A DNA stretch of 64,000 nucleotides, from positions 18,156 through 82,155 of the IMG/VR virus record IMGVR_UViG_3300022696_000117; one strand, 5' to 3'. The position numbers and the translations under genes were made by a program. A model generated the notes under the pieces. That model had not been told where the DNA came from and searched no databases. It saw only the letters and a list, made by a program, of their open reading frames with translations. Source of the stretch: a virus. Each line of letters starts with the position of its first letter. Positions within the stretch are counted from its first letter, which is position 1. Below are positions 3,995 through 62,888 of this stretch, piece by piece.

Positions 3995-4197
3995 GCTCCC
4001 TCCAAAATCATCACGGCCGAGTCATAGGCTTCCTCATAGCCCTGGCCGACAGGGCTGTAGAGGTCTTGCTGAATATATCCCGGCAGGCTCTTAAAGCATT
4101 TCCAGCAGAAAGACTTCCCCCTGGCTTTCATCTTGCCGCAGATGCACTCCTCGCTTTTGAGTTGGTCGATGTAAAAAAGTCTGTCGCTTGGTTTCAT
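3991..4197 (-). CDS. Small Cys-rich hypothetical protein
   Basis: CICG...FCWKC; ATGA overlap at 4194-4197. Confidence 0.55.
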   Translation of the reverse strand: MKPSDRLFYIDQLKSEECICGKMKARGKSFCWKCFKSLPGYIQQDLYSPVGQGYEEAYDSAVMILEGA

Positions 4198-4883
4198 TTT
4201 TTCTCCACTTTTTTGAAAGTTATGGCCCAGACCCAGGGATTTGAAAGCCAGTCGATACCAGGCTTCTTCCCGTTCAGAACCTCCCAATATTCGTAGAAAT
4301 GCTCCGAGGGGTACTGGCCGATGTAATCGTTGCCAGCGGGGGTGACGACTGCCGTAGATTCGAATCCCTCGGCAATCGCGTCCTCTTCGCTGATTTGATT
4401 GAGTCGTTGAACCCGAATATCCGTGATTTCAAGGAATATCCGGCAGACCCACTTGGGCATGAAGATGGAGGGGCGCCAAGGGCCCTCGTCGAGACTGTCG
4501 GCCTTGTATTCGATCGGCCGAGTTTTTAAATATTCCAGGTCGAGGCCCTTGAGGCTTCCTTCGAGAATATCTGGGTCAAGGGCTTCGTATCCAGCGAATG
4601 CCTGCCCCTCCCATAGCCGCCAGGTTTCCCGAACCCACAAGCGGTCGCCGACCCTTCCATATGGACACAGATATGCCCGTGGCTCAAAGATCCCGGTTTT
4701 CCCTGTCTTACTCAACGGCATCCAAAGGCTTTCCCCGTCCACTTCCCCATTCTCGAACCGGTCCAGATTGCTCGTACCGGTGCAAACAGGCTGCGGCCTC
4801 AAAGGCCTTCGTGTCTGCGTCTTCCGCCCATTCAAAATCAAACGAACCATCTCGGTGCTGAATAAAGTCGGCAGCTCCCTCAT
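4194..4883 (-). CDS. ASCH/PUA-like phage protein
   Basis: LFSTEMVRLILNGRKTQTRR, CPYGRVGDRLWVRETW, WRPSIFMP, ISEEDAIAEG, NPWVW motifs; ATG at 4883 with GGAGG SD. Confidence 0.8.
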   Translation of the reverse strand: MRELPTLFSTEMVRLILNGRKTQTRRPLRPQPVCTGTSNLDRFENGEVDGESLWMPLSKTGKTGIFEPRAYLCPYGRVGDRLWVRETWRLWEGQAFAGYEALDPDILEGSLKGLDLEYLKTRPIEYKADSLDEGPWRPSIFMPKWVCRIFLEITDIRVQRLNQISEEDAIAEGFESTAVVTPAGNDYIGQYPSEHFYEYWEVLNGKKPGIDWLSNPWVWAITFKKVEKK

Positions 4884-4999
4884 CGTTTGTCCTCCCTCCC
4901 TTCGCTCATCCTGATCCCATACGTGACCCACTTGAAGGCCAGAAACGATCTCCCCAGATCGTCCTTTTCCGTTCGCCACACTTTGATTTTCTTGGTCAT
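4880..4999 (-). CDS. 39-aa small protein MTKKIKVWRTEKDDLGRSFLAFKWVTYGIRMSEGREDKR (below ORF-track cutoff)
   Basis: AAGGAG SD before ATG at 4999; its stop overlaps the ASCH start (ATGA). Confidence 0.55.
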   Translation of the reverse strand: MTKKIKVWRTEKDDLGRSFLAFKWVTYGIRMSEGREDKR

Positions 5000-5013
5000 G
5001 GTTTTCTCCTTGG

Positions 5014-5214
5014 TTAAATTTTGTAGGGCGTGTGAACAGGACATTCATCGAATTCACACGTCAGTCCCCGCTTGGCCATCTCCTTTACCAGCGTCCGGCA
5101 TCTCCGGCAGTAGTACCAAAGCCCGGGAGCCACCGGTCGCCGCCCACACATTTTGCACGTCCGTTTCTGTCTGGGCTCCTTCGCCCGTTCCGGATTGTGC
5201 TGCCTCGAAAGCAT
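5014..5214 (-). CDS. Small Zn-ribbon protein
   Basis: CKMC...CRRC; GGGAG SD. Confidence 0.55.
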   Translation of the reverse strand: MLSRQHNPERAKEPRQKRTCKMCGRRPVAPGLWYYCRRCRTLVKEMAKRGLTCEFDECPVHTPYKI

Positions 5215-5236: not shown

Positions 5237-5252
5237 GGTCCCATTTGGGAAA
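5237..5252. promoter_or_regulatory. Operator-like palindrome GGTCCCATTTGGGAAA
   Basis: Intergenic copy of the CCC-N4-GGG motif found at >=8 intergenic sites. Confidence 0.6.
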
Positions 5253-8524: not shown

Positions 8525-8553
8525 TTGACTTTTCCCAGACGGGAAACTATAAG
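8525..8553 (+). promoter_or_regulatory. Rightward promoter TTGACT-N17-TATAAG with operator TTTCCCAGACGGGAAA (8531-8546) in the spacer
   Basis: Near-consensus -35/-10; a 6-bp-arm palindrome fills the spacer. Confidence 0.75.
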
Positions 8554-19225: not shown

Positions 19226-19408
19226 ATGACCTTCGAAGAATGGCTCCGCACCCTCCCGGATGAATATCCTGCGGAGGGGTACATTTGCGGCTTACTGCGG
19301 ATGGCTTGGAATGCGGCCCTTTCCGAAAACGGTCATGAGTCCTTGACCAACCCCCACAACCCTGATAACTCAGTCTCTAATGAAAGCGAGACTGTGGAAA
19401 AGAAATAA
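19226..19408 (+). CDS. Hypothetical protein
   Basis: MTFEEW...AWNAA pattern common in small phage ORFs. Confidence 0.5.
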   Translation: MTFEEWLRTLPDEYPAEGYICGLLRMAWNAALSENGHESLTNPHNPDNSVSNESETVEKK

Positions 19409-20423
19409 CGGCCAGTATTATGCCCTGTGGGAGGAGGATGGGCGGACCCGGCAGAAGTCCCTTAAAACCGACTCCCTCAAAATAGCCAACCGGCGGTTGA
19501 AAAACTTCAACCGGGATCTGCTGGCCGGCAGCGTCAAGAAGCTCTCCCAGACAGTCCCGAAGGTCACCCTCGGCGAGCTTCGGGAAGCCTTCCTCAAATT
19601 CAAAGACGGCAGGGTGGCCAAAACCACCCTTGCCATCTACGAAACCTCTTTTGATCACGCAGAAAAAACCCTCGGGGAAGATATCCCCATTACGCACATC
19701 ACACAAAAGCGCCTGGAGCAGGTCATGGACGACATGATGGCGTCCGGGCTCAAGCCTCCGACCGTCAACAAGCACCGACGGCACCTGCGGACGGTTTTCA
19801 ACCAGGCCTACGATTGGAACTATCTGGAGAAGCCGATCAAGATGCCTAAGCCTCTGCGAGAGGAGGAGCGTCTCCGGTTCCTGTCAATCGATGAACTCAG
19901 AAAGCTCATCGATTGCATCGACGATCAGGAGTTTTTCGACTTCTGCATGTTGTCGGCCTACACCGGAATGAGATCCGGGGAGCTTCTGAGAATGATGCGG
20001 GGCCACGTCGACCGGCCGGAGGGTTTTCTATTGGTCACCTCTGAACAGAAAAACAAGGCGGACTGGATTATCCCGATCAATGACCATGCGAGGGAGATCC
20101 TGGACAGGTGCCTTTCCAGAAATCACGGACCGAGAGTGTTTCCTAAATGGCGGCTGGAGTGGGTTTCGAAGAAATTCAAGAAATATGCGAGGAAGTCAGG
20201 CTTGAAAGATTGTCGGTTCCATGATCTGAGGCATACCTTTGCAAGCCACCTTGCAATGGGTGGCCAGGATCTCCTGGTCATTCAGATGCTCATGCGCCAC
20301 AAGTCCATGTCGTCGACGATGGTGTACGCCAAGCTGTCTCCAGAACACCTTTCCAGGGCCAGCAACAGCCTTAACTTCGGCCCGATGCCGATACCTTCCA
20401 CGAAGAAGGACGGCAAGGCATAA
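19380..20423 (+). CDS. int: Phage tyrosine integrase
   Basis: N-terminal arm-binding domain; TGMRSGEL, KN, FHDLRHTFAS, LMRH, TMVY catalytic residues; adjacent to attP. Confidence 0.95.
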   Translation: MKARLWKRNNGQYYALWEEDGRTRQKSLKTDSLKIANRRLKNFNRDLLAGSVKKLSQTVPKVTLGELREAFLKFKDGRVAKTTLAIYETSFDHAEKTLGEDIPITHITQKRLEQVMDDMMASGLKPPTVNKHRRHLRTVFNQAYDWNYLEKPIKMPKPLREEERLRFLSIDELRKLIDCIDDQEFFDFCMLSAYTGMRSGELLRMMRGHVDRPEGFLLVTSEQKNKADWIIPINDHAREILDRCLSRNHGPRVFPKWRLEWVSKKFKKYARKSGLKDCRFHDLRHTFASHLAMGGQDLLVIQMLMRHKSMSSTMVYAKLSPEHLSRASNSLNFGPMPIPSTKKDGKA

Positions 20424-20597: not shown

Positions 20598-20648
20598 TGG
20601 TACGCCCGGCAGGATTCGAACCTGCGGCCTACGGATTAGAAGTCCGTT
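20598..20648 (-). other. attP core: 3' half of tRNA-Arg(TCT)
   Basis: Minus strand ACGGA-CTTCTAA-TCCGT anticodon arm, GGTTCGAATCC T-loop, ...GGGCGTACCA end; D-arm and 5' acceptor strand absent. Confidence 0.9.
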
Positions 20649-20703
20649 CCAGCCCACAGCTGAAAACCCCGCAATTTCAAGTAATTCCCTAAAAATCAGA
20701 CCC

Positions 20704-20825: not shown

Positions 20826-22661
20826 ATGGCCAAGTTCAACGCAGCGTATCGCAACGGCGGGGAGGGAATGACCCAATGGGTTGAGGATTTCGTTCGGATG
20901 CCGATCTATCCGGAGGGCAGCCCTATTCCAGTTTGGGTTCCCATGAACGACCTGCCTCAAGAGCCCAATCTCGACACCGGAAGGTCATACCAGACGATAT
21001 GGGACGCACAGAAAGACATCCTCCACGAGGCCCTCGCCATGAAAAACGGCCGGTTCATCCACCGGCTGATCGTCCTGTGCTGGATGCGTGGCGAAGGAAA
21101 GACCGTCATAGGGCCCTGCCTGATCAATCTGTGGAAATTCATGAACTGGCCCAGGCAGAACATTGTCCTCGGAGCCAACTCCAAAGATCAGACCAAGTTC
21201 ATCACTTTCGATATCATCCGTGACATGATTCTGAACAGCCCCAACCTGCTTGCGTTGGTCGGCAAGAAGAATATCCGGGAAAAAGAGATCCGGCTGAGAG
21301 ACGCAAAAGGCAACGTCGTGTCAACCATCAGAGCTGTCTCATCTTTTTCCGGCATCCTGTCGAACATCACCGGGTACGCTTTCAGCGAAATCTTTCAGAT
21401 GAACAACCCGGAATTTTTCCAGCAGATCGACGGATCCATCCGAAATGTTCCCAACGCGATGGGCGTCATCGACTCCACAGTGTCATCGAAGGACCATATC
21501 CTGTACCAGCTCTACGAAGCCGATCGTGACGGCCAGGACCCGACCATCTATTTTTCATACCGGTGCTCTCACGATGGCGACTATCGAGATTACTGGCATC
21601 CCAACCAGAATCAGAGTCAGCTTGACTCATATCGGGTGAAGTTCAAGGCAGGCAACGGGTTCAAGCGGTATTTTCAGAACCTGTGGTCTGCCGGCTCCGA
21701 AAAGTTTTTTCCGGAAGAGATCATCGAGGCATCCTATTATGTCGGTCTCTATGGGCGACCGAACGATTTCAACGGAATCAAGGAGCAGATATCCAGAATA
21801 CATGGACTCAGGCGGGAGATTGATGCTTTTGCCAAAAAGGATGTCGAGCTTGCTGATTTCAAAATCAGATTCGAGGTCGCCCGAAAAGAGCTTCAACCGG
21901 TTGAGGACATCTACCAGCTTGGTACGACCCAGGGCCTCCCGCGGCATTGTTCAATCGATGAGCTGGAGGATCTCTCCGACTTTTTCGATACCGATTGGGC
22001 CATCGCCGCCGGCATCGACCGGGCCGACCCGGGAAAGACCAGGACCGGGGCAAGAACCATGCTGTCCGTGGTAGGCAAGGGCATGATCGGCAGCCGATCC
22101 AATCCGCATCTCTGGACCTCGATTGCCAAGGACTATATCTATTGCGTCCTCCATGTGGCCGACATCGCAGATCATAGTTTGGTCGGCATCAAAGCCGAAA
22201 TCCTGAAATGCCACGAGGAATATGAAGGGGTGGATCTGGTATCGTCAGAACGATTCGGGCTTTGGGATCTGAAGGAGTGGGGTGAGGAGAACGACATACG
22301 GTTCGACCTGATATACCCGACCTTCGATCGCCAGAAGGACGCCTTCTACGAGTTTTTCCGGATCATGGATTCGGGCCGGCTCAAGATGCCGCGAGTGTAT
22401 GTCCCGGGGTCCCGGAGTTCGGACATTCTCCGCGAGGAGCTATCAATGTTCGAGAGCGAAATCAGATCAGAGACGCAGGGCTGGTTCGGTTCTCCTGAAA
22501 AGAAAAAGATGAAAGGCGTCCAGGACGATTTGGTCTTTGCAATGGCGTGGGCCGTCTACGGCGCCAGGGTTCTCACCGTAGACGACTTTCGGGGCAGGGG
22601 GGCAAAGGTTGAGTTCGGGGATTCTATTTCTCCGAGGGGATTGCTCGGAGCGTATGCTTGA
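20826..22661 (+). CDS. terL: Terminase large subunit
   Basis: WDAQ Q-motif, Walker A-like WMRGEGKT, IDST coupling motif, RYFQNLW, nuclease AAGIDRA and QDDLVFAMAWA. Confidence 0.8.
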   Translation: MAKFNAAYRNGGEGMTQWVEDFVRMPIYPEGSPIPVWVPMNDLPQEPNLDTGRSYQTIWDAQKDILHEALAMKNGRFIHRLIVLCWMRGEGKTVIGPCLINLWKFMNWPRQNIVLGANSKDQTKFITFDIIRDMILNSPNLLALVGKKNIREKEIRLRDAKGNVVSTIRAVSSFSGILSNITGYAFSEIFQMNNPEFFQQIDGSIRNVPNAMGVIDSTVSSKDHILYQLYEADRDGQDPTIYFSYRCSHDGDYRDYWHPNQNQSQLDSYRVKFKAGNGFKRYFQNLWSAGSEKFFPEEIIEASYYVGLYGRPNDFNGIKEQISRIHGLRREIDAFAKKDVELADFKIRFEVARKELQPVEDIYQLGTTQGLPRHCSIDELEDLSDFFDTDWAIAAGIDRADPGKTRTGARTMLSVVGKGMIGSRSNPHLWTSIAKDYIYCVLHVADIADHSLVGIKAEILKCHEEYEGVDLVSSERFGLWDLKEWGEENDIRFDLIYPTFDRQKDAFYEFFRIMDSGRLKMPRVYVPGSRSSDILREELSMFESEIRSETQGWFGSPEKKKMKGVQDDLVFAMAWAVYGARVLTVDDFRGRGAKVEFGDSISPRGLLGAYA

Positions 22662-23264
22662 TCAAAGCATTATTTTGAGTTCAAGTTCCGATATGTCGAA
22701 GGTATCAGCCTCGTTGCCGGTCAGAGAAACGGTTATGTAAACAGACGGCCAGGCTTCTGTGATTCCAGAGAAGTCGAGTTCATCCTTCCATAACAACAGG
22801 TCTTCCCATTCATTGACCGTCGACATCGGAACCCATGTTTGCGAAAAGATAGTGGTCCCAACGTCTCCTTCCATGCCCACATAGAAAGCGGGTGAGCCAA
22901 CATCAGTTCTTCTGCATCTGGCTCTTATTTCAGCTTTTGTGGCTTTTCTTAAAATTGATCCTGATATGCTGCTATACCGCCACAAGTTAAGGCTGTAGGT
23001 GTCGCTTGCGTTGGTGTTTATGGCCGTGGCGTAATCGGTGTCAACCGGTGCGTCGATTCCATTTGAAATCAACTTATACCTGTCCCCATCCAGGCCGACC
23101 GAGGCGGCGAAGTTTCCGCTCCACACTCCGGTAGCAAACGCACGAACCGGATTTTGCACAAACATCAGGGTTTCAATTGAAAGGCTTACTTCTGAGATTG
23201 CGTCTTCCATCCCGGAGGCTATTTCTCCGGAAATAACCACATTTCCTGATTCAGGCCGTATCAT
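22662..23264 (-). CDS. Tail-tip/receptor-binding-like beta protein
   Basis: Last gene of the structural operon; beta-rich. Confidence 0.5.
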   Translation of the reverse strand: MIRPESGNVVISGEIASGMEDAISEVSLSIETLMFVQNPVRAFATGVWSGNFAASVGLDGDRYKLISNGIDAPVDTDYATAINTNASDTYSLNLWRYSSISGSILRKATKAEIRARCRRTDVGSPAFYVGMEGDVGTTIFSQTWVPMSTVNEWEDLLLWKDELDFSGITEAWPSVYITVSLTGNEADTFDISELELKIML

Positions 23265-56348: not shown

Positions 56349-57968
56349 CTATTCCATACCTTCCACGGTAGATTCCTGGGCTTCCCGCTCCACCAGCTGT
56401 TCGTCAGACGGCTCGGCCTCCAGCTTTTCCTGCATGGCTTCCTGATCGATGGTGAGAGCAAGGTCCGGATACTGGTTGTCCTCAACCGCTTTCCTGAGCC
56501 GCATGGTATGGTAGTTGCCGATACCAAGCTGCTTGGCCAGCCGTCCCTGGGGAAGCCCGGCGCCCTCCGCGAGAGAGGCATGCTTGACGCCGTAGACGGC
56601 CCGGACCCTGGACTCAAGGTCGATGGATTCCGAAACCGGAAAGGAGATCTCAAGAAAGTGTTCGGGCGGTTTGCTAACCTGTCGAAGGATCGGCTCCTTG
56701 TTCTGGTCCCAACCGACGCAGACGTTTTTCACGAAGGTCTCCGGCATGAAGCCGACCTTGGAGCGAAGAAAGAACACCGCTGACCAGAAGTCGTGCCTGA
56801 GGAACCGCTCGAAATATGCGATCTCGTCCGATGTTCGGTCCGACATGGGCCCCCGGGATGCCTTGACGGAGGCGAAGGTCCCGGAGGCTCGGCCGGTCAT
56901 GACGTCGGAAGGCTCGTTGAGACCGGATGAAACCATGTCGAGAATGTCGGTGTCCTGGCCGGACAGGGAGGGGAGGTTGGGATTTTTGACTTCGCATTTC
57001 ATGCCCGGGGGAAGAACAAGCTTCTGCCCCGGAGCGATCGGTTGGCCGATGGCGGTCTTCTTCTTTTCCTCATCGGGCAGGGAAACCCACTTACGGAACG
57101 AGGCAAGATCCTCGAACGAAAAGACCCAGGCGTAGGCGCCGGCTGATTTCTTGTGGTCGATCTCATATTGCTTCAACCGCTCGTAGTGGTTCAGCCATTT
57201 GATGGTGGTCTGGAGATAGGCCGTGGCCCTTCGGGTCATAAGGCCCTTGTCCCACGCGACGATGAACGAGCAGTAGCCCTTGAGCTTTGAGTAGCCGTAG
57301 CCACCGAAAGCGGCCTGCTGTTCCTGGATGTTGAAATCGGGATGGGTCTGCGCGTCTTCGAGGAGGGACGGGTATCGGGCGATAAAGATGGAGGGGATCT
57401 GCTCCCGGACCTGGCCCTTGCCCCGGTCGTTATAACTTATGTTATAGAACAGGGGCATCGTGGTCTTGCGGGAATGATATATGACGCCGGTGCCGTCGTC
57501 GCCGCCATCCTTGATCGCGGACGGATCGACGAAGTCCACCTCGACAAAGCCGTCTTTCTTGTGGACGGTGAGACGCTGGAAAAGCTCGCCTTCGATTTCA
57601 TGCCGGCCGACATACTTCGGCCAGAAATCCCAAAGACGGTTCCTGTGATCGGTTTCGATTTCTTCAATGACCTGCTGGATTTCGTAAAGAGGGGAGGTGA
57701 CCTCGAATCCCCACCCTGCCATCCGGCCCATGACACCACGGATCGCGGTGTTGAGCTGCGGATTGTCGTGAAACTTGTTCCAGCATTCAGCCTGGAGGGA
57801 CTCACGGTTCTGAGGTGTGGTTTTGGAGGTGCCGCGGGAAAGGGGGAACCCGTCCTCGTCGGTAAGGACGGGTTCTGTGGGCAGGAGCTGGAACTGCATT
57901 TGACGGAGGAGGTCGTCAGGTATGGAGGCGACTGCGTCGGCTAATTTTTCGGGCGGCAAGCCTGTCAT
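56349..57968 (-). CDS. Portal protein
   Basis: 539 aa, first gene of the head operon; NPQLNTAI...GWGF, IEGELF, LVLPPGMK, GTFASVK. Confidence 0.8.
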   Translation of the reverse strand: MTGLPPEKLADAVASIPDDLLRQMQFQLLPTEPVLTDEDGFPLSRGTSKTTPQNRESLQAECWNKFHDNPQLNTAIRGVMGRMAGWGFEVTSPLYEIQQVIEEIETDHRNRLWDFWPKYVGRHEIEGELFQRLTVHKKDGFVEVDFVDPSAIKDGGDDGTGVIYHSRKTTMPLFYNISYNDRGKGQVREQIPSIFIARYPSLLEDAQTHPDFNIQEQQAAFGGYGYSKLKGYCSFIVAWDKGLMTRRATAYLQTTIKWLNHYERLKQYEIDHKKSAGAYAWVFSFEDLASFRKWVSLPDEEKKKTAIGQPIAPGQKLVLPPGMKCEVKNPNLPSLSGQDTDILDMVSSGLNEPSDVMTGRASGTFASVKASRGPMSDRTSDEIAYFERFLRHDFWSAVFFLRSKVGFMPETFVKNVCVGWDQNKEPILRQVSKPPEHFLEISFPVSESIDLESRVRAVYGVKHASLAEGAGLPQGRLAKQLGIGNYHTMRLRKAVEDNQYPDLALTIDQEAMQEKLEAEPSDEQLVEREAQESTVEGME

Positions 57969-58000
57969 TGAAAATCTCGATAAGCATTATAGATTATGCC

Positions 58001-58053
58001 TATTTACATACCGAGAGAATGTTATGTCAAGTTAAATTTTCCCGTTTGGGGAA
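58001..58053 (-). promoter_or_regulatory. Candidate late promoter (TTGACA at 58025-58030) with adjacent operator TTTCCCGTTTGGGGAA (58038-58053)
   Basis: Perfect -35; AT-rich -10 region; upstream of the portal. Confidence 0.55.
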
Positions 58054-58097
58054 AAATGTGGAAGGATATGGGGCGGGTGTGCGCGTGCGTAGGAAAC

Positions 58098-58130
58098 AAA
58101 AAAAGGCCCTATCCGGGGCAGGATAGGGCC
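58098..58130 (-). terminator. Intrinsic terminator 2
   Basis: GGCCCTATCC/GGATAGGGCC 10-bp stem plus T7. Confidence 0.85.
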
Positions 58131-58176
58131 AAAACAAAAAAAGCCCCCTGCCGCATGGGAAACGACAGGGGGCTTT
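58131..58176 (-). terminator. Intrinsic terminator 1
   Basis: AAAGCCCCCTG/CAGGGGGCTTT stem plus T-tract. Confidence 0.85.
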
Positions 58177-58210
58177 AGCCAAGGAAAACCATGACCAGCG
58201 AACAGGTCAT
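58134..58210 (-). ncRNA. Candidate ~75-nt small RNA carrying an anti-RBS sequence
   Basis: Promoter TTGACA-N17-TACCAT (58243-58215) directly upstream and a terminator directly downstream; contains UGGUCAUGGUUUUCCUUGG. Confidence 0.55.
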
Positions 58211-58249
58211 GGTGATGGTATATTCGTGGTGCTATGATGTCAAGGTGTT

Positions 58250-58474
58250 TTAAATACCAAGACCGCGGATGTCGCCAGCCAAACTTTCCCCGTTGGTTTC
58301 AATCGCTCTCTCCAAGACGCTCTCGATAACGGTGTCGCTTACACTTGACTCGCAGTCCTCCGGAGCAGGATATCTGCCCACAATGTCGAGCGCGTCTTGC
58401 CAGTCGGACCAGGACGCTTCATTGATCTCATTGTTGTCTTCGACAGCTGATATCAAATACCTGAGCTTTTCCAT
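58250..58474 (-). CDS. Small acidic protein
   Basis: GGAGG SD; TAATG coupling. Confidence 0.6.
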   Translation of the reverse strand: MEKLRYLISAVEDNNEINEASWSDWQDALDIVGRYPAPEDCESSVSDTVIESVLERAIETNGESLAGDIRGLGI

Positions 58475-58671
58475 TAAGCCTCCTCTTCGGTGACCGATAT
58501 GTATTCGGCTATGCTTATCGGATCGATATCGAGAGCACCGCTTCCCCAAAACATGTACGCCTCGGTATCCGTGATTACCTTGCTCCCGTTGCGCCAGTAT
58601 AGGAGCTTGAGCTTGGTGGGGTCGTACTTGTCTCCTTGGTTTCTCCTTTCAGTCCGACTCAAAATATCCAT
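58474..58671 (-). CDS. Small hypothetical protein
   Basis: Operon packing. Confidence 0.5.
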   Translation of the reverse strand: MDILSRTERRNQGDKYDPTKLKLLYWRNGSKVITDTEAYMFWGSGALDIDPISIAEYISVTEEEA

Positions 58672-59799: not shown

Positions 59800-60675
59800 T
59801 TAGTTCGCCCACCCGAGCCCGTCCGAGACTCGCTTTCTCAGCATATCCTCGGTGGGGTGCAGGTAGACCTTTTCGATTATATCCCTCGAATCGCCCAACA
59901 GAAAGGCGATATCCTCCAGCCGCATCTCGGCATCGTAGAACAGCTTTGTCGCCACGAAATGCCTGAACACATGGGTGAGACGCCCGGGCTCCTTCAGCCC
60001 GAGTTCCTTCAGCATGTAATCTATCAGGGCTTTGATCCGTGGGGCCTCGATGTTAAACAGCTTCCTGTCCGGATCTTCGAACAACTCCTCCTTGGATTCA
60101 AGGTATCGCCTCATAAGATCCCTCGTGATCGGGTTCACAAAAACATGCCGGCAGGTCGTTTTCGAGATGCCGATGTAGATCGAGCGCTTCTCGACGTTCA
60201 CGTCCCGGACCTTGATGCTTGCGATCTCACGAACCCGGCAGCCGGTCTCGGCCAGGAGCCGGACGATCAGGTGATTGCGGTCATGGTGGTTCGGGAACTC
60301 GAATTCCATGCACCGCTTCACGTCTTCTTCGGTGAGCCACCGCCGTACCTGCTTCTGCCGATACTGATGCTGTTCGGCATTGGTGATGCGGTAGGTGAAT
60401 CCTTTGACCGGGCTGCCGGTCTTCGCCATCATCATACGAATGACGTTGCAATAATACTGGATGGTCTTCCCGGAAACTCCCCGGGTCGACTGAGTGAACC
60501 TTATGAACGCCTCGGTGTGGTCCACCAAGGACTTGTCCAGGTGGCGCACACCCGCCGAATCGCAGTATCGGACCAGGGCGTCCAGCGCATATCCATATGT
60601 GTCTCTGGTGGTCTTGGCCAGGCCCCGGATATCGGGACTGTTCAGGAACCTCTTAATCCTCTGTCTCGGTGTCAT
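59800..60675 (-). CDS. Second tyrosine recombinase (Xer-like, no arm-binding domain)
   Basis: ETGCRVREI, SKT, HVFRH, LLGD, KVY; GGAGG SD before ATG at 60675. Confidence 0.85.
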   Translation of the reverse strand: MTPRQRIKRFLNSPDIRGLAKTTRDTYGYALDALVRYCDSAGVRHLDKSLVDHTEAFIRFTQSTRGVSGKTIQYYCNVIRMMMAKTGSPVKGFTYRITNAEQHQYRQKQVRRWLTEEDVKRCMEFEFPNHHDRNHLIVRLLAETGCRVREIASIKVRDVNVEKRSIYIGISKTTCRHVFVNPITRDLMRRYLESKEELFEDPDRKLFNIEAPRIKALIDYMLKELGLKEPGRLTHVFRHFVATKLFYDAEMRLEDIAFLLGDSRDIIEKVYLHPTEDMLRKRVSDGLGWAN

Positions 60676-61096
60676 CGTCAGCCTCCGAAAATATGTTCCG
60701 GATGGTATCCGGATCGCCTCCGAGGGCCTCGAAGAACGAGGCGATCTTCTCGACACAGGGGCCGCAGACCGGATCGACACCCACGGTGAACGGATGCCCG
60801 CCTGCGTTCAGGGCCTGGTCGCAGAAGTAGCAGTCTCCTCGGGAAGCGTTGTATTTATCGTTTATTTCCTGGAAGTAATCGACCCCTTCGGTCAGTTCGA
60901 CCAGGTCGAAGTCCCCCTTGCCTACGGTGCCGAGTCCCTCATCCACCTGCATGAGGATGGAGGCCCCGATGAATGAGATGATCTTCTGTCTCATGTCGTC
61001 AGGCAGTCCGGCCAAATGATCGATGGCCTGGACCAGGACCGGGTCCTCCTTCTCGGCTTTCCGCTGGAACAGATCGATTATCTTTTTGTCCACCAT
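60653..61096 (-). CDS. Hypothetical protein with two CxxC motifs
   Basis: CYFC...CGPC; AGGAG SD. Confidence 0.6.
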   Translation of the reverse strand: MVDKKIIDLFQRKAEKEDPVLVQAIDHLAGLPDDMRQKIISFIGASILMQVDEGLGTVGKGDFDLVELTEGVDYFQEINDKYNASRGDCYFCDQALNAGGHPFTVGVDPVCGPCVEKIASFFEALGGDPDTIRNIFSEADDDTETED

Positions 61097-61164: not shown

Positions 61165-61509
61165 TTATGGGTTATTGGAGCGTACCGTGATAATTGCCGG
61201 GTTTAAAACACCATCGGAATCCTCCTGGCCAGTGGCCTTTCCGACGTCTCTGTTCCATGCCTTCCTGAACTCCTCTCCCCGGCTATGGCAGTGGGACACC
61301 ATCTGCGCTACGCATCCGGCCATGAAGCCCGTAATGCCACCGGTCTGAGCATCTTCGTCAGCACGGCGAATTATCTCATGAAGGTCAAAACCCTCTTCTT
61401 CGTCGAGGATTTCCATGACTCTCCTGGCAACATCAATGCAAGCCTTCCCATACGGGTCTTCGTTTGCCTTGACCCACGACTCCCAATCTTCCTGTTTGAC
61501 TATCGGCAT
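61165..61509 (-). CDS. Conserved phage hypothetical protein
   Basis: NEDPYG...GITGFMAGCV....HSRGEEFRKAWN...GVLNPAI. Confidence 0.65.
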   Translation of the reverse strand: MPIVKQEDWESWVKANEDPYGKACIDVARRVMEILDEEEGFDLHEIIRRADEDAQTGGITGFMAGCVAQMVSHCHSRGEEFRKAWNRDVGKATGQEDSDGVLNPAIITVRSNNP

Positions 61510-61527
61510 TTCTCTCTCCTTACGTTA

Positions 61528-61728
61528 TTAGTTATGTTTGCGGTCACTGCCCACAGAAAGCTTCTCCCTCACATAATGCGTGAAACAGCTTTCGCATACC
61601 AGCTTGTCGCCATGATCCTCGGTCGAATAAAAGTCAAAGCTCGGGGTGCAAAGACGAACCTTTTCGCACACACAACAGCGACATTGCTTATAACACCTGT
61701 CTTCATTTACGGTTTCAACGATGCTCAC
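61528..61728 (-). CDS. Small Cys-rich protein
   Basis: CRCCVC...C...CESC. Confidence 0.55.
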   Translation of the reverse strand: MSIVETVNEDRCYKQCRCCVCEKVRLCTPSFDFYSTEDHGDKLVCESCFTHYVREKLSVGSDRKHN

Positions 61729-62888
61729 TCCCCCACCTCGATTCTAACGGTCTCCCCGAACGGTGCTTTCCGATCGGTAGTTGCGATCCACAGCACCGGA
61801 TAGGCCGGCGCCGTGCCCGGGAAGTTGCCATACATATCCGTCAGGTAGATCAGACACGCCGGGGTGTCGCCGGATTGATCTATGTGATCGAACACCGGCC
61901 GGAAGTCGGTGCCGCCGCCGCCTTTCGCTGTCAGCTTGATGGGCAGCTCGTCCTGGGTATAGGTCTCTGTGCCCTGGACTCTGGAATCGCACCAGATCAG
62001 ATTGACGGTGCAGGCCTGGTACTCTTCCAGGATGGAGTTCAACTCACCGGCGAACTGCGAAAGCTCATCGGAGCCGACCGAACCGCTGGTGTCGATGGCC
62101 AGGGTGATCTCACCGAGTTCCAGGCTATGCAGGCTCGGCAGGATGATGCCGCCCTGGAGATATCTACGATTCGGCCTGGTCCAGTTGTAATCGTTCTTGG
62201 CGGACCGCTCGACGTAGGCTCGGAGCATTTCTCTCCAGTCGACCTTGGGAGCGAGGATTTCATCGACGAATCCTTCGAGCGCCCCCGGAAGTTTGCCGCA
62301 GGCTTTCGCGGCCTGTGCGGCCTGGCGGGTCGAGATCTTCCAGTCCTGTTCGTGTTCTTGCATTTCGGAAGGGGAGGGTTTGCCCTGGCCCTTGCCGTCC
62401 TTGTCTCCGTCTTTGCCGGGGCCGGGATAATCTCGGACTTCGCCCCACCCTCCTTCGCCGTCGCCACCGGGGCCGTCTCCATGTTTTTCGGGGAGCTTCC
62501 CGTACACGGCCTCGGTCGAAAGCCCAACGAAGTTCTGATCGAGAAGCCCGCCGGCCGGGAGCGCCATACCGCAGTCCCGAAGGACCGGGTTGATCACGTA
62601 GTCACCAGCCACGTTCCACCGTTTCGGCGCCCGCTGGCATCTGCGGGTGTGGTGGTTGCTGGCGCAGTGCATTACCTCGTGAGCGATAAAGCCCTTGACT
62701 TCGTCCAGGCTGAGGGACTCGATCCATTCCGGATTGTACCCCAGGTGGACCCCGTTCACCCATCCGGTCGGTTGAGTCGGGTCCTCCTTGAATTGAAGCT
62801 TCAGGGCCAGCGCCCCGAAGAATCGCATGTCCAGGATGAGCCCGGCCCGGGCTTTTGTCATTTTGTCTTTTGCTGTGGGGTTGTTCAT
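61725..62888 (-). CDS. DUF2201-type metallopeptidase + VWA domain protein
   Basis: AHEVMH (HExxH), WNVAGDYVIN, MIDAS DTSGS, GGGTDFRPVF, YLTD. Confidence 0.9.
   Translation of the reverse strand: MNNPTAKDKMTKARAGLILDMRFFGALALKLQFKEDPTQPTGWVNGVHLGYNPEWIESLSLDEVKGFIAHEVMHCASNHHTRRCQRAPKRWNVAGDYVINPVLRDCGMALPAGGLLDQNFVGLSTEAVYGKLPEKHGDGPGGDGEGGWGEVRDYPGPGKDGDKDGKGQGKPSPSEMQEHEQDWKISTRQAAQAAKACGKLPGALEGFVDEILAPKVDWREMLRAYVERSAKNDYNWTRPNRRYLQGGIILPSLHSLELGEITLAIDTSGSVGSDELSQFAGELNSILEEYQACTVNLIWCDSRVQGTETYTQDELPIKLTAKGGGGTDFRPVFDHIDQSGDTPACLIYLTDMYGNFPGTAPAYPVLWIATTDRKAPFGETVRIEVGE

What the first reader, a model, noticed from the sequence alone, without database searches (positions are those of the whole stretch)
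58098..58243. Stand-alone small RNA complementary to a ribosome-binding site 53 kb away
Seen: TTGACA-N17-TACCAT fires on the minus strand into about 75 nt that end in two tandem intrinsic terminators. The RNA contains UGGUCAUGGUUUUCCUUGG. This pairs (13+6 bp with a 2-nt bulge) with CCAAGGAGAAAACCAUGACCA, the SD and start of the unannotated 39-aa ORF at 4880-4999 (target 4993-5013). That ORF heads a largely ATGA-coupled chain leading to the ASCH, exonuclease, lysozyme and ssb genes. Inference: a trans-acting phage sRNA that silences this operon by RBS occlusion and polarity, possibly an RNA layer of immunity or lysis timing.
Basis: partly seen in the sequence, partly recalled or inferred. Interest (0 to 1): 0.78.

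Follow-up and report, generated by a model that had tools for sequence, protein, structure and literature searches.

The report
Candidate phage antisense small RNA
A phage has a promoter-to-terminator unit for a ~75-nt RNA that could pair with the ribosome-binding site of a small phage gene, but the match comes from a start-site motif this phage reuses at many genes, and neither a transcript nor any regulation is shown.

Summary
On the minus strand, TTGACA-N17-TACCAT (58243-58215) is followed by a 9-bp hairpin and two strong intrinsic terminators (58176-58140 and 58130-58105, each with U7). Nucleotides 58197-58179 are complementary to the SD and AUG of the 39-aa ORF (5013-4993): 14 contiguous bp, 23 of 26 with flanks. 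Promoters and terminators this strong are rare in the 82-kb phage genome, so a small RNA unit is credible.

The plus strand of the seed is a copy of this phage's stereotyped gene junction (stop-CCAAGGAG-N-CCATGA). It resembles the target no more than sibling start sites resemble each other. It also heads a 20-aa plus-strand ORF. The complementarity may therefore be a by-product, or reflect cis-antisense control.

No close relative could be fetched, so covariation was not tested. One metatranscriptome contig keeps the RNA body and -10 but not the -35 or the neighbouring 74-aa gene.

My odds:
- trans anti-RBS RNA: about 0.38
- terminator insulator plus inverted junction relic: about 0.33
- cis-antisense pair: about 0.14

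If real, it is a new member of a known kind, like P1 c4, with a possible regulon of 5-7 look-alike early start sites.

The parts
58215..58243 (-). P1, a sigma-70-like promoter: TTGACA (58243-58238), 17-nt spacer, TACCAT (58220-58215), with an A/T-rich tract upstream
   Evidence: It is one of 7 hits of 10/12 or better in the whole genome on both strands, and one of 3 outside large genes. In the X2 relative the -35 and spacer are not kept: the contig joins 58221 to 58484.
58134..58210 (-). Putative small RNA, short form (about 75-77 nt). Read-through to 58098 gives about 111-113 nt.
   Evidence: Predicted from P1 and terminator 1. No transcript data.
58188..58213 (-). Hairpin 1: ACCAUGACC, 8-nt loop, GGUCAUGGU. 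It is a perfect 9-bp palindrome and holds part of the seed. Only 4-6 bp remain if transcription starts at 58210-58207.
   Evidence: It is the only such palindrome in the genome.
58179..58197 (-). Seed, complementary to the SD and AUG of the 39-aa ORF. The similarity extends over 58174-58197.
58133..58176 (-). Intrinsic terminator 1: 15-bp stem with 9 G-C pairs, then U7
58098..58130 (-). Intrinsic terminator 2: 10-bp stem with 7 G-C pairs, then U7
58179..58253 (+). Plus-strand junction-type start site (TAG-CCAAGGAAAACC-ATG-ACC) heading a 20-aa ORF (58191-58253) that runs antisense into the end of the 74-aa gene
   Evidence: Read. Family membership is shown.
58250..58474 (-). 74-aa gene, the last gene of the leftward accessory operon. 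No family hit. Together with P1's spacer and -35 it makes up the 262-nt stretch (58222-58483) that the X2 contig skips.
58037..58055 (-). Operator-like palindrome TTTTCCCCAAACGGGAAAA, just upstream of the portal promoter
   Evidence: Related copies lie at 8532, 20714 and 20785 and near 5237.
58024..58029 (-). P2: the -35 TTGACA of the portal promoter, 56 nt before the portal ATG
   Evidence: A TTGACA at the same distance from the portal start is present in more than 20 relatives.
56349..57968 (-). Portal gene, first gene of the structural operon
4993..5013 (-). Proposed target: SD (AAGGAG) and AUG of the 39-aa ORF, directly after the stop of the 66-aa gene
   Evidence: Local opening energy is only 2.8 kcal/mol.
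4880..4999 (-). 39-aa ORF, a real small gene, ATGA-coupled to the next gene
   Evidence: 38-aa homologue at 82% identity with conservative changes. Called in JGI/IMG.
4194..4883 (-). ASCH-like gene (phrog_874). Its start at 4883 agrees with the N-termini of homologues.

Best explanation
A short minus-strand RNA of about 75 nt is made from the sigma-70-type promoter P1, or released as the 3' end of the leftward accessory operon, and stops at the tandem terminators.

Its 5' domain is the exact antisense of one copy of this phage's stereotyped gene junction (stop-CCAAGGAG-N-CCAUGA). It can therefore cover the Shine-Dalgarno sequence and AUG of look-alike start sites in trans. The best match is the 39-aa ORF at 4999. 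That ORF is translationally coupled to the ASCH-like gene in the replication operon. Four to six early genes in the left arm are weaker matches.

Shown:
- the promoter and terminator anatomy
- the complementarity
- an open target site
- that the target ORF is a real gene

Inferred:
- that the RNA is made
- that it pairs in vivo
- that pairing lowers translation
- any polarity on downstream genes

No evidence supports a role in immunity or lysis timing.
For: - P1 matches 10 of 12 with a perfect -35 and a 17-nt spacer. Such matches are rare: 7 in 164 kb.
- The phage family demonstrably uses TTGACA promoters: the portal promoter is conserved in more than 20 relatives.
- Two strong terminators follow within 75-113 nt. 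Only 6 exist in the genome, 3 of them here.
- The fold has z = -8.4.
- Pairing is 14 contiguous bp, or 23 of 26 with flanks, over the SD and AUG.
- About 6-8 independent complements to start sites of 14 nt or more occur genome-wide. The expectation of one landing within about 60 nt upstream of one of the few strong terminators is about 0.01.
- The hybrid is -28.4 kcal/mol, net about -16 to -17.5 after opening costs. The target site is unstructured.
- With a 23-nt seed against 28-nt start-site windows, the target ranks first of 121 (-30.5; median -13.9).
- The 39-aa ORF is a conserved gene and overlaps the next gene by ATGA.
Against: - There are no transcript data. Metatranscriptome contigs cannot show starts, ends or strand.
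- In the one relative that covers the locus (X2), similarity stops at 58221. The -35 and spacer of P1 are therefore not kept there.
- The seed's plus strand is a member of the phage's start-site family. Its similarity to the target (37.5) is no higher than between sibling start sites (38, 38, 36). Selection for pairing is not needed to explain it.
- Over 34 x 50-nt windows the duplex energy is matched by 30% of shuffles, and another start site ties.
- 8-9.5 kcal/mol is needed to open the seed.
- No relative was close enough for covariation.
- The ASCH-like gene is absent from 5 near-complete relatives.
Confidence: 0.38

Rival explanations
1. The locus is a transcriptional insulator plus a relic. 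It is simply the end of the leftward accessory operon: three tandem hairpin terminators shield the conserved portal promoter P2 from upstream transcription. The seed is an inverted, decaying copy of the phage's stereotyped gene junction, left by module shuffling at a rearranged site. P1 is fortuitous or irrelevant, and nothing is regulated by pairing.
For: - In about 60 relatives terL lies directly upstream of the portal, with only a short gap that carries the TTGACA promoter. Here terL is 35 kb away on the other strand, so this intergenic region is a rearrangement junction.
- The similarity to the target is at the level seen within the start-site family.
- The mosaic boundary at 58221/58222 cuts both P1 and the plus-strand ORF in the X2 relative.
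- The hairpin and terminators begin 37-74 nt after the stop of the 74-aa gene, as operon terminators do.
Against: - A 10/12 promoter match falling by chance in this 281-nt gap on the right strand has an expectation of about 0.01.
- A relic would not be expected to keep 23 of 26 identities, or to sit exactly between a promoter and terminators.
- The perfect 9-bp palindrome is unexplained.
Confidence: 0.33
2. The locus is a cis-antisense pair. The plus-strand junction-type start site is functional and drives the 20-aa ORF (58191-58253). The P1 RNA overlaps that ORF's SD, AUG and first 6 codons and controls it in cis, with the geometry of SymR/symE or Sok/hok. Complementarity to the 39-aa ORF then follows only from shared start-site style.
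For: - Eight of the nine CCAAGGA(G/A)-N-ATG sites in the genome are real gene starts.
- The P1 start lies 15-19 nt inside the ORF.
- Hairpin 1 would sequester the AUG in the plus-strand mRNA.
- There is a weak plus-strand promoter match at 57968-57995, 9 of 12.
- A distant relative (L112/L105) also has an opposite-strand AAGGAG-N6-ATG and a 28-aa ORF abutting a terminator between terL and the portal.
Against: - The peptide is 20 aa, only moderately hydrophobic (own calculation: GRAVY about 0.6), and has no transmembrane stretch.
- The ORF's last 11 codons lie beyond the mosaic boundary at 58221.
- Anti-start-site motifs upstream of terminators are not enriched across the family loci: 4 of 48 against a 4.3% background.
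- No plus-strand gene neighbours it.
Confidence: 0.14
3. The RNA is a late-operon leader, as with lambda PR'-6S-tR'. P1 is the late promoter, its transcript normally stops at the tandem terminators, and a phage antiterminator lets RNA polymerase read into the portal operon.
For: A constitutive-looking promoter, a short terminated RNA and then the first structural gene lie within 250 nt.
Against: - The portal has its own family-conserved TTGACA promoter downstream of the terminators. An operator-like palindrome shared with terL lies next to it.
- No Q-like or other antiterminator family was found among the upstream small proteins.
Confidence: 0.05
4. The 9-8-9 palindrome (ACCATGACC-N8-GGTCATGGT) is a DNA core site for the tyrosine recombinase encoded 1.6 kb upstream (59800-60780), for example for dimer resolution. 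The RNA-level features are then incidental.
For: Inverted 9-bp arms around an 8-bp spacer have the geometry of lox/FRT/dif-type sites. A XerC/D-like recombinase gene lies nearby.
Against: - There is only one full palindrome in the genome.
- About 3 such palindromes are expected by chance in 82 kb (own estimate).
- It does not explain the SD-complementary part or the terminators.
Confidence: 0.04

Closest known systems
c4 antisense RNA of phages P1/P7 (immI region)
   Same: Both are phage-encoded short RNAs whose complementary segment covers the ribosome-binding site of a phage mRNA and blocks translation (review PMC12197685). From my own knowledge, the P1 target is the small ORF icd, which is translationally coupled to ant. 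That parallels the 39-aa ORF coupled to the ASCH-like gene.
   Different: From my own knowledge, c4 is processed from the leader of the same transcript as its target. Here the RNA and its target are 53 kb apart in separate units. The target operon is for replication, not an antirepressor. There is no Rfam C4 match, even at E up to 10.
Other phage or prophage trans-acting sRNAs (24B_1, DicF, IsrK)
   Same: All are short phage-encoded RNAs that act by base pairing. 24B_1 is proposed to repress a gene of its own phage. IsrK acts through translation of a small leader ORF that is coupled to a downstream gene (PMC12197685).
   Different: There is no sequence or structural homology, the host is unknown, and neither expression nor a phenotype is known here.
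SymR/symE and Sok/hok-type cis-antisense control
   Same: The RNA starts a few codons inside an opposite-strand small ORF and covers its SD and AUG.
   Different: The 20-aa ORF is not toxin-like. There is no evidence that the plus strand is transcribed.
Lambda 6S RNA (PR'-tR' leader)
   Same: A short terminated transcript lies immediately upstream of the late genes.
   Different: Here a separate, conserved promoter lies between the terminators and the portal gene.

Membership tests
Trans-encoded base-pairing sRNA (RBS occlusion) | Own promoter | tested here: inconclusive
   There is a strong consensus match. Activity is not shown, and the -35 is not kept in the X2 relative.
Trans-encoded base-pairing sRNA (RBS occlusion) | Rho-independent terminator with a U-tail at the 3' end | tested here: met
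   Two terminators, each followed by U7.
Trans-encoded base-pairing sRNA (RBS occlusion) | Seed complementary to the SD/AUG of a distant mRNA, with favourable net energy | tested here: met
   14 bp perfect and 23 of 26 overall, net about -16 to -17.5 kcal/mol. The match is explained by the start-site family.
Trans-encoded base-pairing sRNA (RBS occlusion) | A discrete transcript is detected | not testable with these tools
   Only Logan contigs were available. They show presence in one run, but not ends or strand.
Trans-encoded base-pairing sRNA (RBS occlusion) | Conservation or covariation of seed and target in relatives | not testable with these tools
P1/P7 c4 RNA (Rfam C4) | Match to the covariance model | tested here: not met
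   No hit at the gathering score or at E up to 10.
P1/P7 c4 RNA (Rfam C4) | Encoded in the leader of the transcript that it regulates | tested here: not met
   The target is 53 kb away, in another operon.
Type I toxin-antitoxin / cis-antisense pair | Antisense RNA overlapping the start site of an opposite-strand small ORF | tested here: met
   The 20-aa ORF spans 58191-58253 and the RNA starts at 58210-58207.
Type I toxin-antitoxin / cis-antisense pair | Hydrophobic, membrane-active toxin peptide | tested here: not met
   MTSEQVMVMVYSWCYDVKVF has charged residues and no stretch long enough to span a membrane (read).
Lambda-type late leader with antitermination | No promoter between the terminator and the late genes | tested here: not met
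   A conserved TTGACA lies 56 nt before the portal ATG here and at the same place in more than 20 relatives.
Any Rfam family | Score at or above the gathering threshold | tested here: not met
   The best hit is anti-hemB at 25.5 bits against a threshold of 49.5. The hits are look-alikes with two hairpins.

The most novel reading that the evidence does not exclude
The RNA is a phage-encoded 'anti-start-site' regulator with a regulon defined by a stereotyped translation-initiation motif. The motif CCAAGGAG-N-CCAUGA is over-represented at this phage's early and replication genes. The seed pairs at -25 to -30 kcal/mol with five of them and at -23 to -24.5 with two more, against a median of -13.9. 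One small RNA could thus turn down a whole set of early genes at once, for example at the early-to-late switch or in the lysogen.
Probability: 0.12. Interest if true: 0.75.

Novelty: new member of a known kind. Interest (0 to 1): 0.4.

Why it matters
Trans-acting phage RNAs that silence the phage's own genes are few (P1/P7 c4, 24B_1), and almost none are known from uncultured environmental phages. If this one is real, it would show that a phage can turn a copy of its own stereotyped ribosome-binding site into an antisense regulator. It might then control several early genes through one motif.

If it is not real, the case is a useful warning. In a genome with stereotyped start sites, any antisense copy of one site produces impressive but meaningless complementarity to its siblings.

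Tried and rejected
- **Relatives for covariation.** I tried the INPHARED phages, IMG/VR with the portal protein, an exact seed pattern, a portal alignment and the ASCH-like protein, JGI metagenomes and GTDB genomes. The best portal identity was 54-59%. The sRNA region has no blastn or nhmmer similarity in 80 loci.
- **Relatives' records.** The ASCH-like gene is absent from 5 large relatives.
- The contigs that hold the near-identical 66-aa protein (P0135, 2544 nt) and the 82%-identical 38-aa protein (P0121, 1636 nt) could therefore not be read.
- **Expression.** Only assembled contigs of three metatranscriptomes and one DNA run were available. X1 and X3 have no contig over 58015-58415 and X2 has one. 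This says nothing about transcription.
- **Energy significance.** duplexfold of a 34-nt RNA against 50-nt windows does not separate the target from shuffles. I rejected it as a useful statistic.
- **A 53-kb inversion between the two copies.** Reversing it does not restore a sensible gene order, nor terL-portal adjacency. This is reasoning.
- **A longer ASCH-like gene (start at 5057) that would make the 39-aa ORF spurious.** The gain is only 6.5 bits, and homologues start at the position equivalent to 4883. Rejected.
- **A repeated operator made of the ACCATGACC half-site.** There is only one palindrome in the genome.
- **Enrichment of anti-start-site motifs upstream of terminators across the family.** Not significant.

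Full report
**Context.** The window is the last 64 kb of an 82,155-nt single-contig virus record. It belongs to a large family of 80-89-kb phages known only from metagenomes. The closest portal proteins are 50-59% identical.

The finding lies in a 281-nt gap. On one side is a 74-aa gene (58474-58250), the last gene of a leftward operon of small genes headed by a tyrosine recombinase (59800-60780). On the other side is the portal gene (57968-56349), the first gene of the structural operon.

**Check of the observation.** All elements are present as described.
- The promoter is TTGACA (58243-58238), 17 nt, TACCAT (58220-58215), 10 of 12 matches.
- A 9-bp hairpin ACCAUGACC/GGUCAUGGU lies at 58213-58188.
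- Terminator 1 is 58176-58140 (15 bp, then U7). Terminator 2 is 58130-58105 (10 bp, then U7).
- The region folds at -62.9 kcal/mol, z = -8.4.
- With a start at 58210-58207, the RNA is 75-77 nt to terminator 1.
- The sequence 58197-58179 is complementary to 5013-4993, which holds the AAGGAG and AUG of the 39-aa ORF.
- The perfect helix is 14 bp. A gapped alignment gives 23 of 26 identities, score 37.5 against 18.8 +/- 2.7 in shuffles.
- The 39-aa ORF overlaps the ASCH-like gene by ATGA. The chain continues to DNA-polymerase exonuclease, lysozyme and SSB genes.

**Is it more than chance?**
- Consensus promoters are rare here: 7 hits of 10/12 or better in 164 kb.
- So are strong terminators: 6 in the genome, 3 of them at this locus.
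- Complements of 14 nt or more to some start site are not rare genome-wide, at about 6-8 independent cases.
- One falling just upstream of one of the few strong terminators has an expectation near 0.01.

So the arrangement is not random.

**What explains the complementarity.** The plus strand of the seed reads TAG-CCAAGGAAAACC-ATG-ACC. This is this phage's stereotyped gene junction. Eight real genes start with CCAAGGA(G/A)-N-ATG, several of them with CCATGA.

Pairwise scores within this family are 38, 38, 37.5 (the seed's plus strand against the target), 36, 32.5 and lower. The match to the target therefore needs no selection for pairing. It follows from an inverted junction copy lying at this place.

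That copy also heads a 20-aa plus-strand ORF (58191-58253). The seed pairs nearly as well with other family start sites. Values are -30.5 for the target, -28.3, -27.9, -27.1 and -25.1 for four early genes, and a median of -13.9 over 121 start sites.

**Feasibility of pairing.**
- The hybrid is -28.4 kcal/mol.
- Opening the seed costs 8-9.5 kcal/mol.
- Opening the target costs 2.8 kcal/mol.
- The net is about -16 to -17.5 kcal/mol.
- An unrestricted duplex energy is not significant.

**The target is a real gene.** A 38-aa protein from another metagenome is 82% identical, with conservative changes. The start of the ASCH-like gene at 4883 agrees with the N-termini of homologues.

**Surroundings.**
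- In about 60 relatives terL lies directly upstream of the portal. The short gap almost always carries a TTGACA about 55-65 nt before the portal start. The same TTGACA is at 58029-58024 here, so the portal has its own conserved promoter downstream of the terminators.
- An operator-like palindrome (58055-58037) lies next to that promoter. Related copies lie before terL and elsewhere.
- In this phage terL is at 20826-22661 on the other strand. The gap studied is therefore a rearrangement junction.
- These points argue against a lambda-type late leader. They fit terminators that act as an insulator.

**Relatives and expression.**
- Contigs of three metatranscriptomes and one DNA run hold relatives that are 90-96% identical.
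- One X2 contig covers 57894-58221 and then jumps to 58484-58554. The portal start, P2, both terminators, the seed and the -10 are therefore contiguous in an independent assembly.
- That contig does not keep the -35 and spacer of P1 or the 74-aa gene.
- Contigs cannot show transcription.

**Known families.** Rfam gives nothing at the gathering score. The sub-threshold hits are generic sRNAs with two hairpins. The closest known system in function is the c4 RNA of P1/P7, with 24B_1 and IsrK as further phage examples (PMC12197685). The membership tests for c4 fail.

**Verdict.** A small RNA unit is credible, and its RNA could occlude the start site of the 39-aa ORF. The evidence does not separate three readings:
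- an adapted trans regulator (0.38)
- an insulator carrying an inverted junction relic (0.33)
- a cis-antisense pair with the 20-aa ORF (0.14)

The roles proposed in immunity or lysis timing are unsupported.

Noticed in passing
window 20826-22664 and 56349-58055: terL is detached from the portal. In about 60 relatives it lies directly upstream of the portal on the same strand. Here it is 35 kb away on the other strand. Its stop abuts the stop of the last tail gene with no gap, inside the palindrome TTGATCAA.
   Followed up: partly
window 58024-58029; loci L003, L010, L018-L025, L032-L043 and others: A TTGACA about 55-65 nt before the portal start is conserved across the phage family. It is a likely host-sigma-70-type portal promoter.
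   Followed up: partly
genome-wide, e.g. window 5013 and 58179, and window coordinates -4888 to -17625 (negative = before the window's start): The gene junction and start site is stereotyped as (stop)-CCAAGGAG-N-(CC)ATGA at about 8 genes. Pairs share up to 19 identical nucleotides. The cause is unknown. It could be module shuffling, strong translation or a shared regulator.
   Followed up: partly
window 58037-58055, 20714, 20785, 8532, about 5237: Operator-like palindromes TTCCC-N4/5-GGGAA lie in intergenic DNA before the portal, before terL, inside a promoter spacer at 8532, and after the primase gene.
   Followed up: partly
window 58222-58483: A relative in run X2 skips or replaces 262 nt at 58222-58483. 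This stretch comprises the 74-aa gene, which overlaps the preceding 65-aa gene by one base (TAATG), plus P1's spacer and -35. That is a mosaic boundary immediately upstream of the -10 of P1.
   Followed up: partly
window 61177-61733: Contigs of three runs (X1, X2, X3) join 61176 to 61734 with AGTT in between. This phage therefore carries 557 nt that its close relatives lack, next to the 3' end of the HNH endonuclease gene (61725-62888).
   Followed up: no
window 20601-20663: A partial tRNA-like sequence scores 32.7 bits in Rfam but is not called by ARAGORN. It lies between the integrase (19380-20423) and terL, and is a likely attP core.
   Followed up: no
L112 2900-2965 (same in L105): In a distant AT-rich relative, CCATGAGTTCTCCTTG lies directly before a strong terminator between terL and the portal. 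The opposite strand reads AAGGAG-N6-ATG and heads a 28-aa ORF. This may parallel the locus studied, or may be chance.
   Followed up: partly
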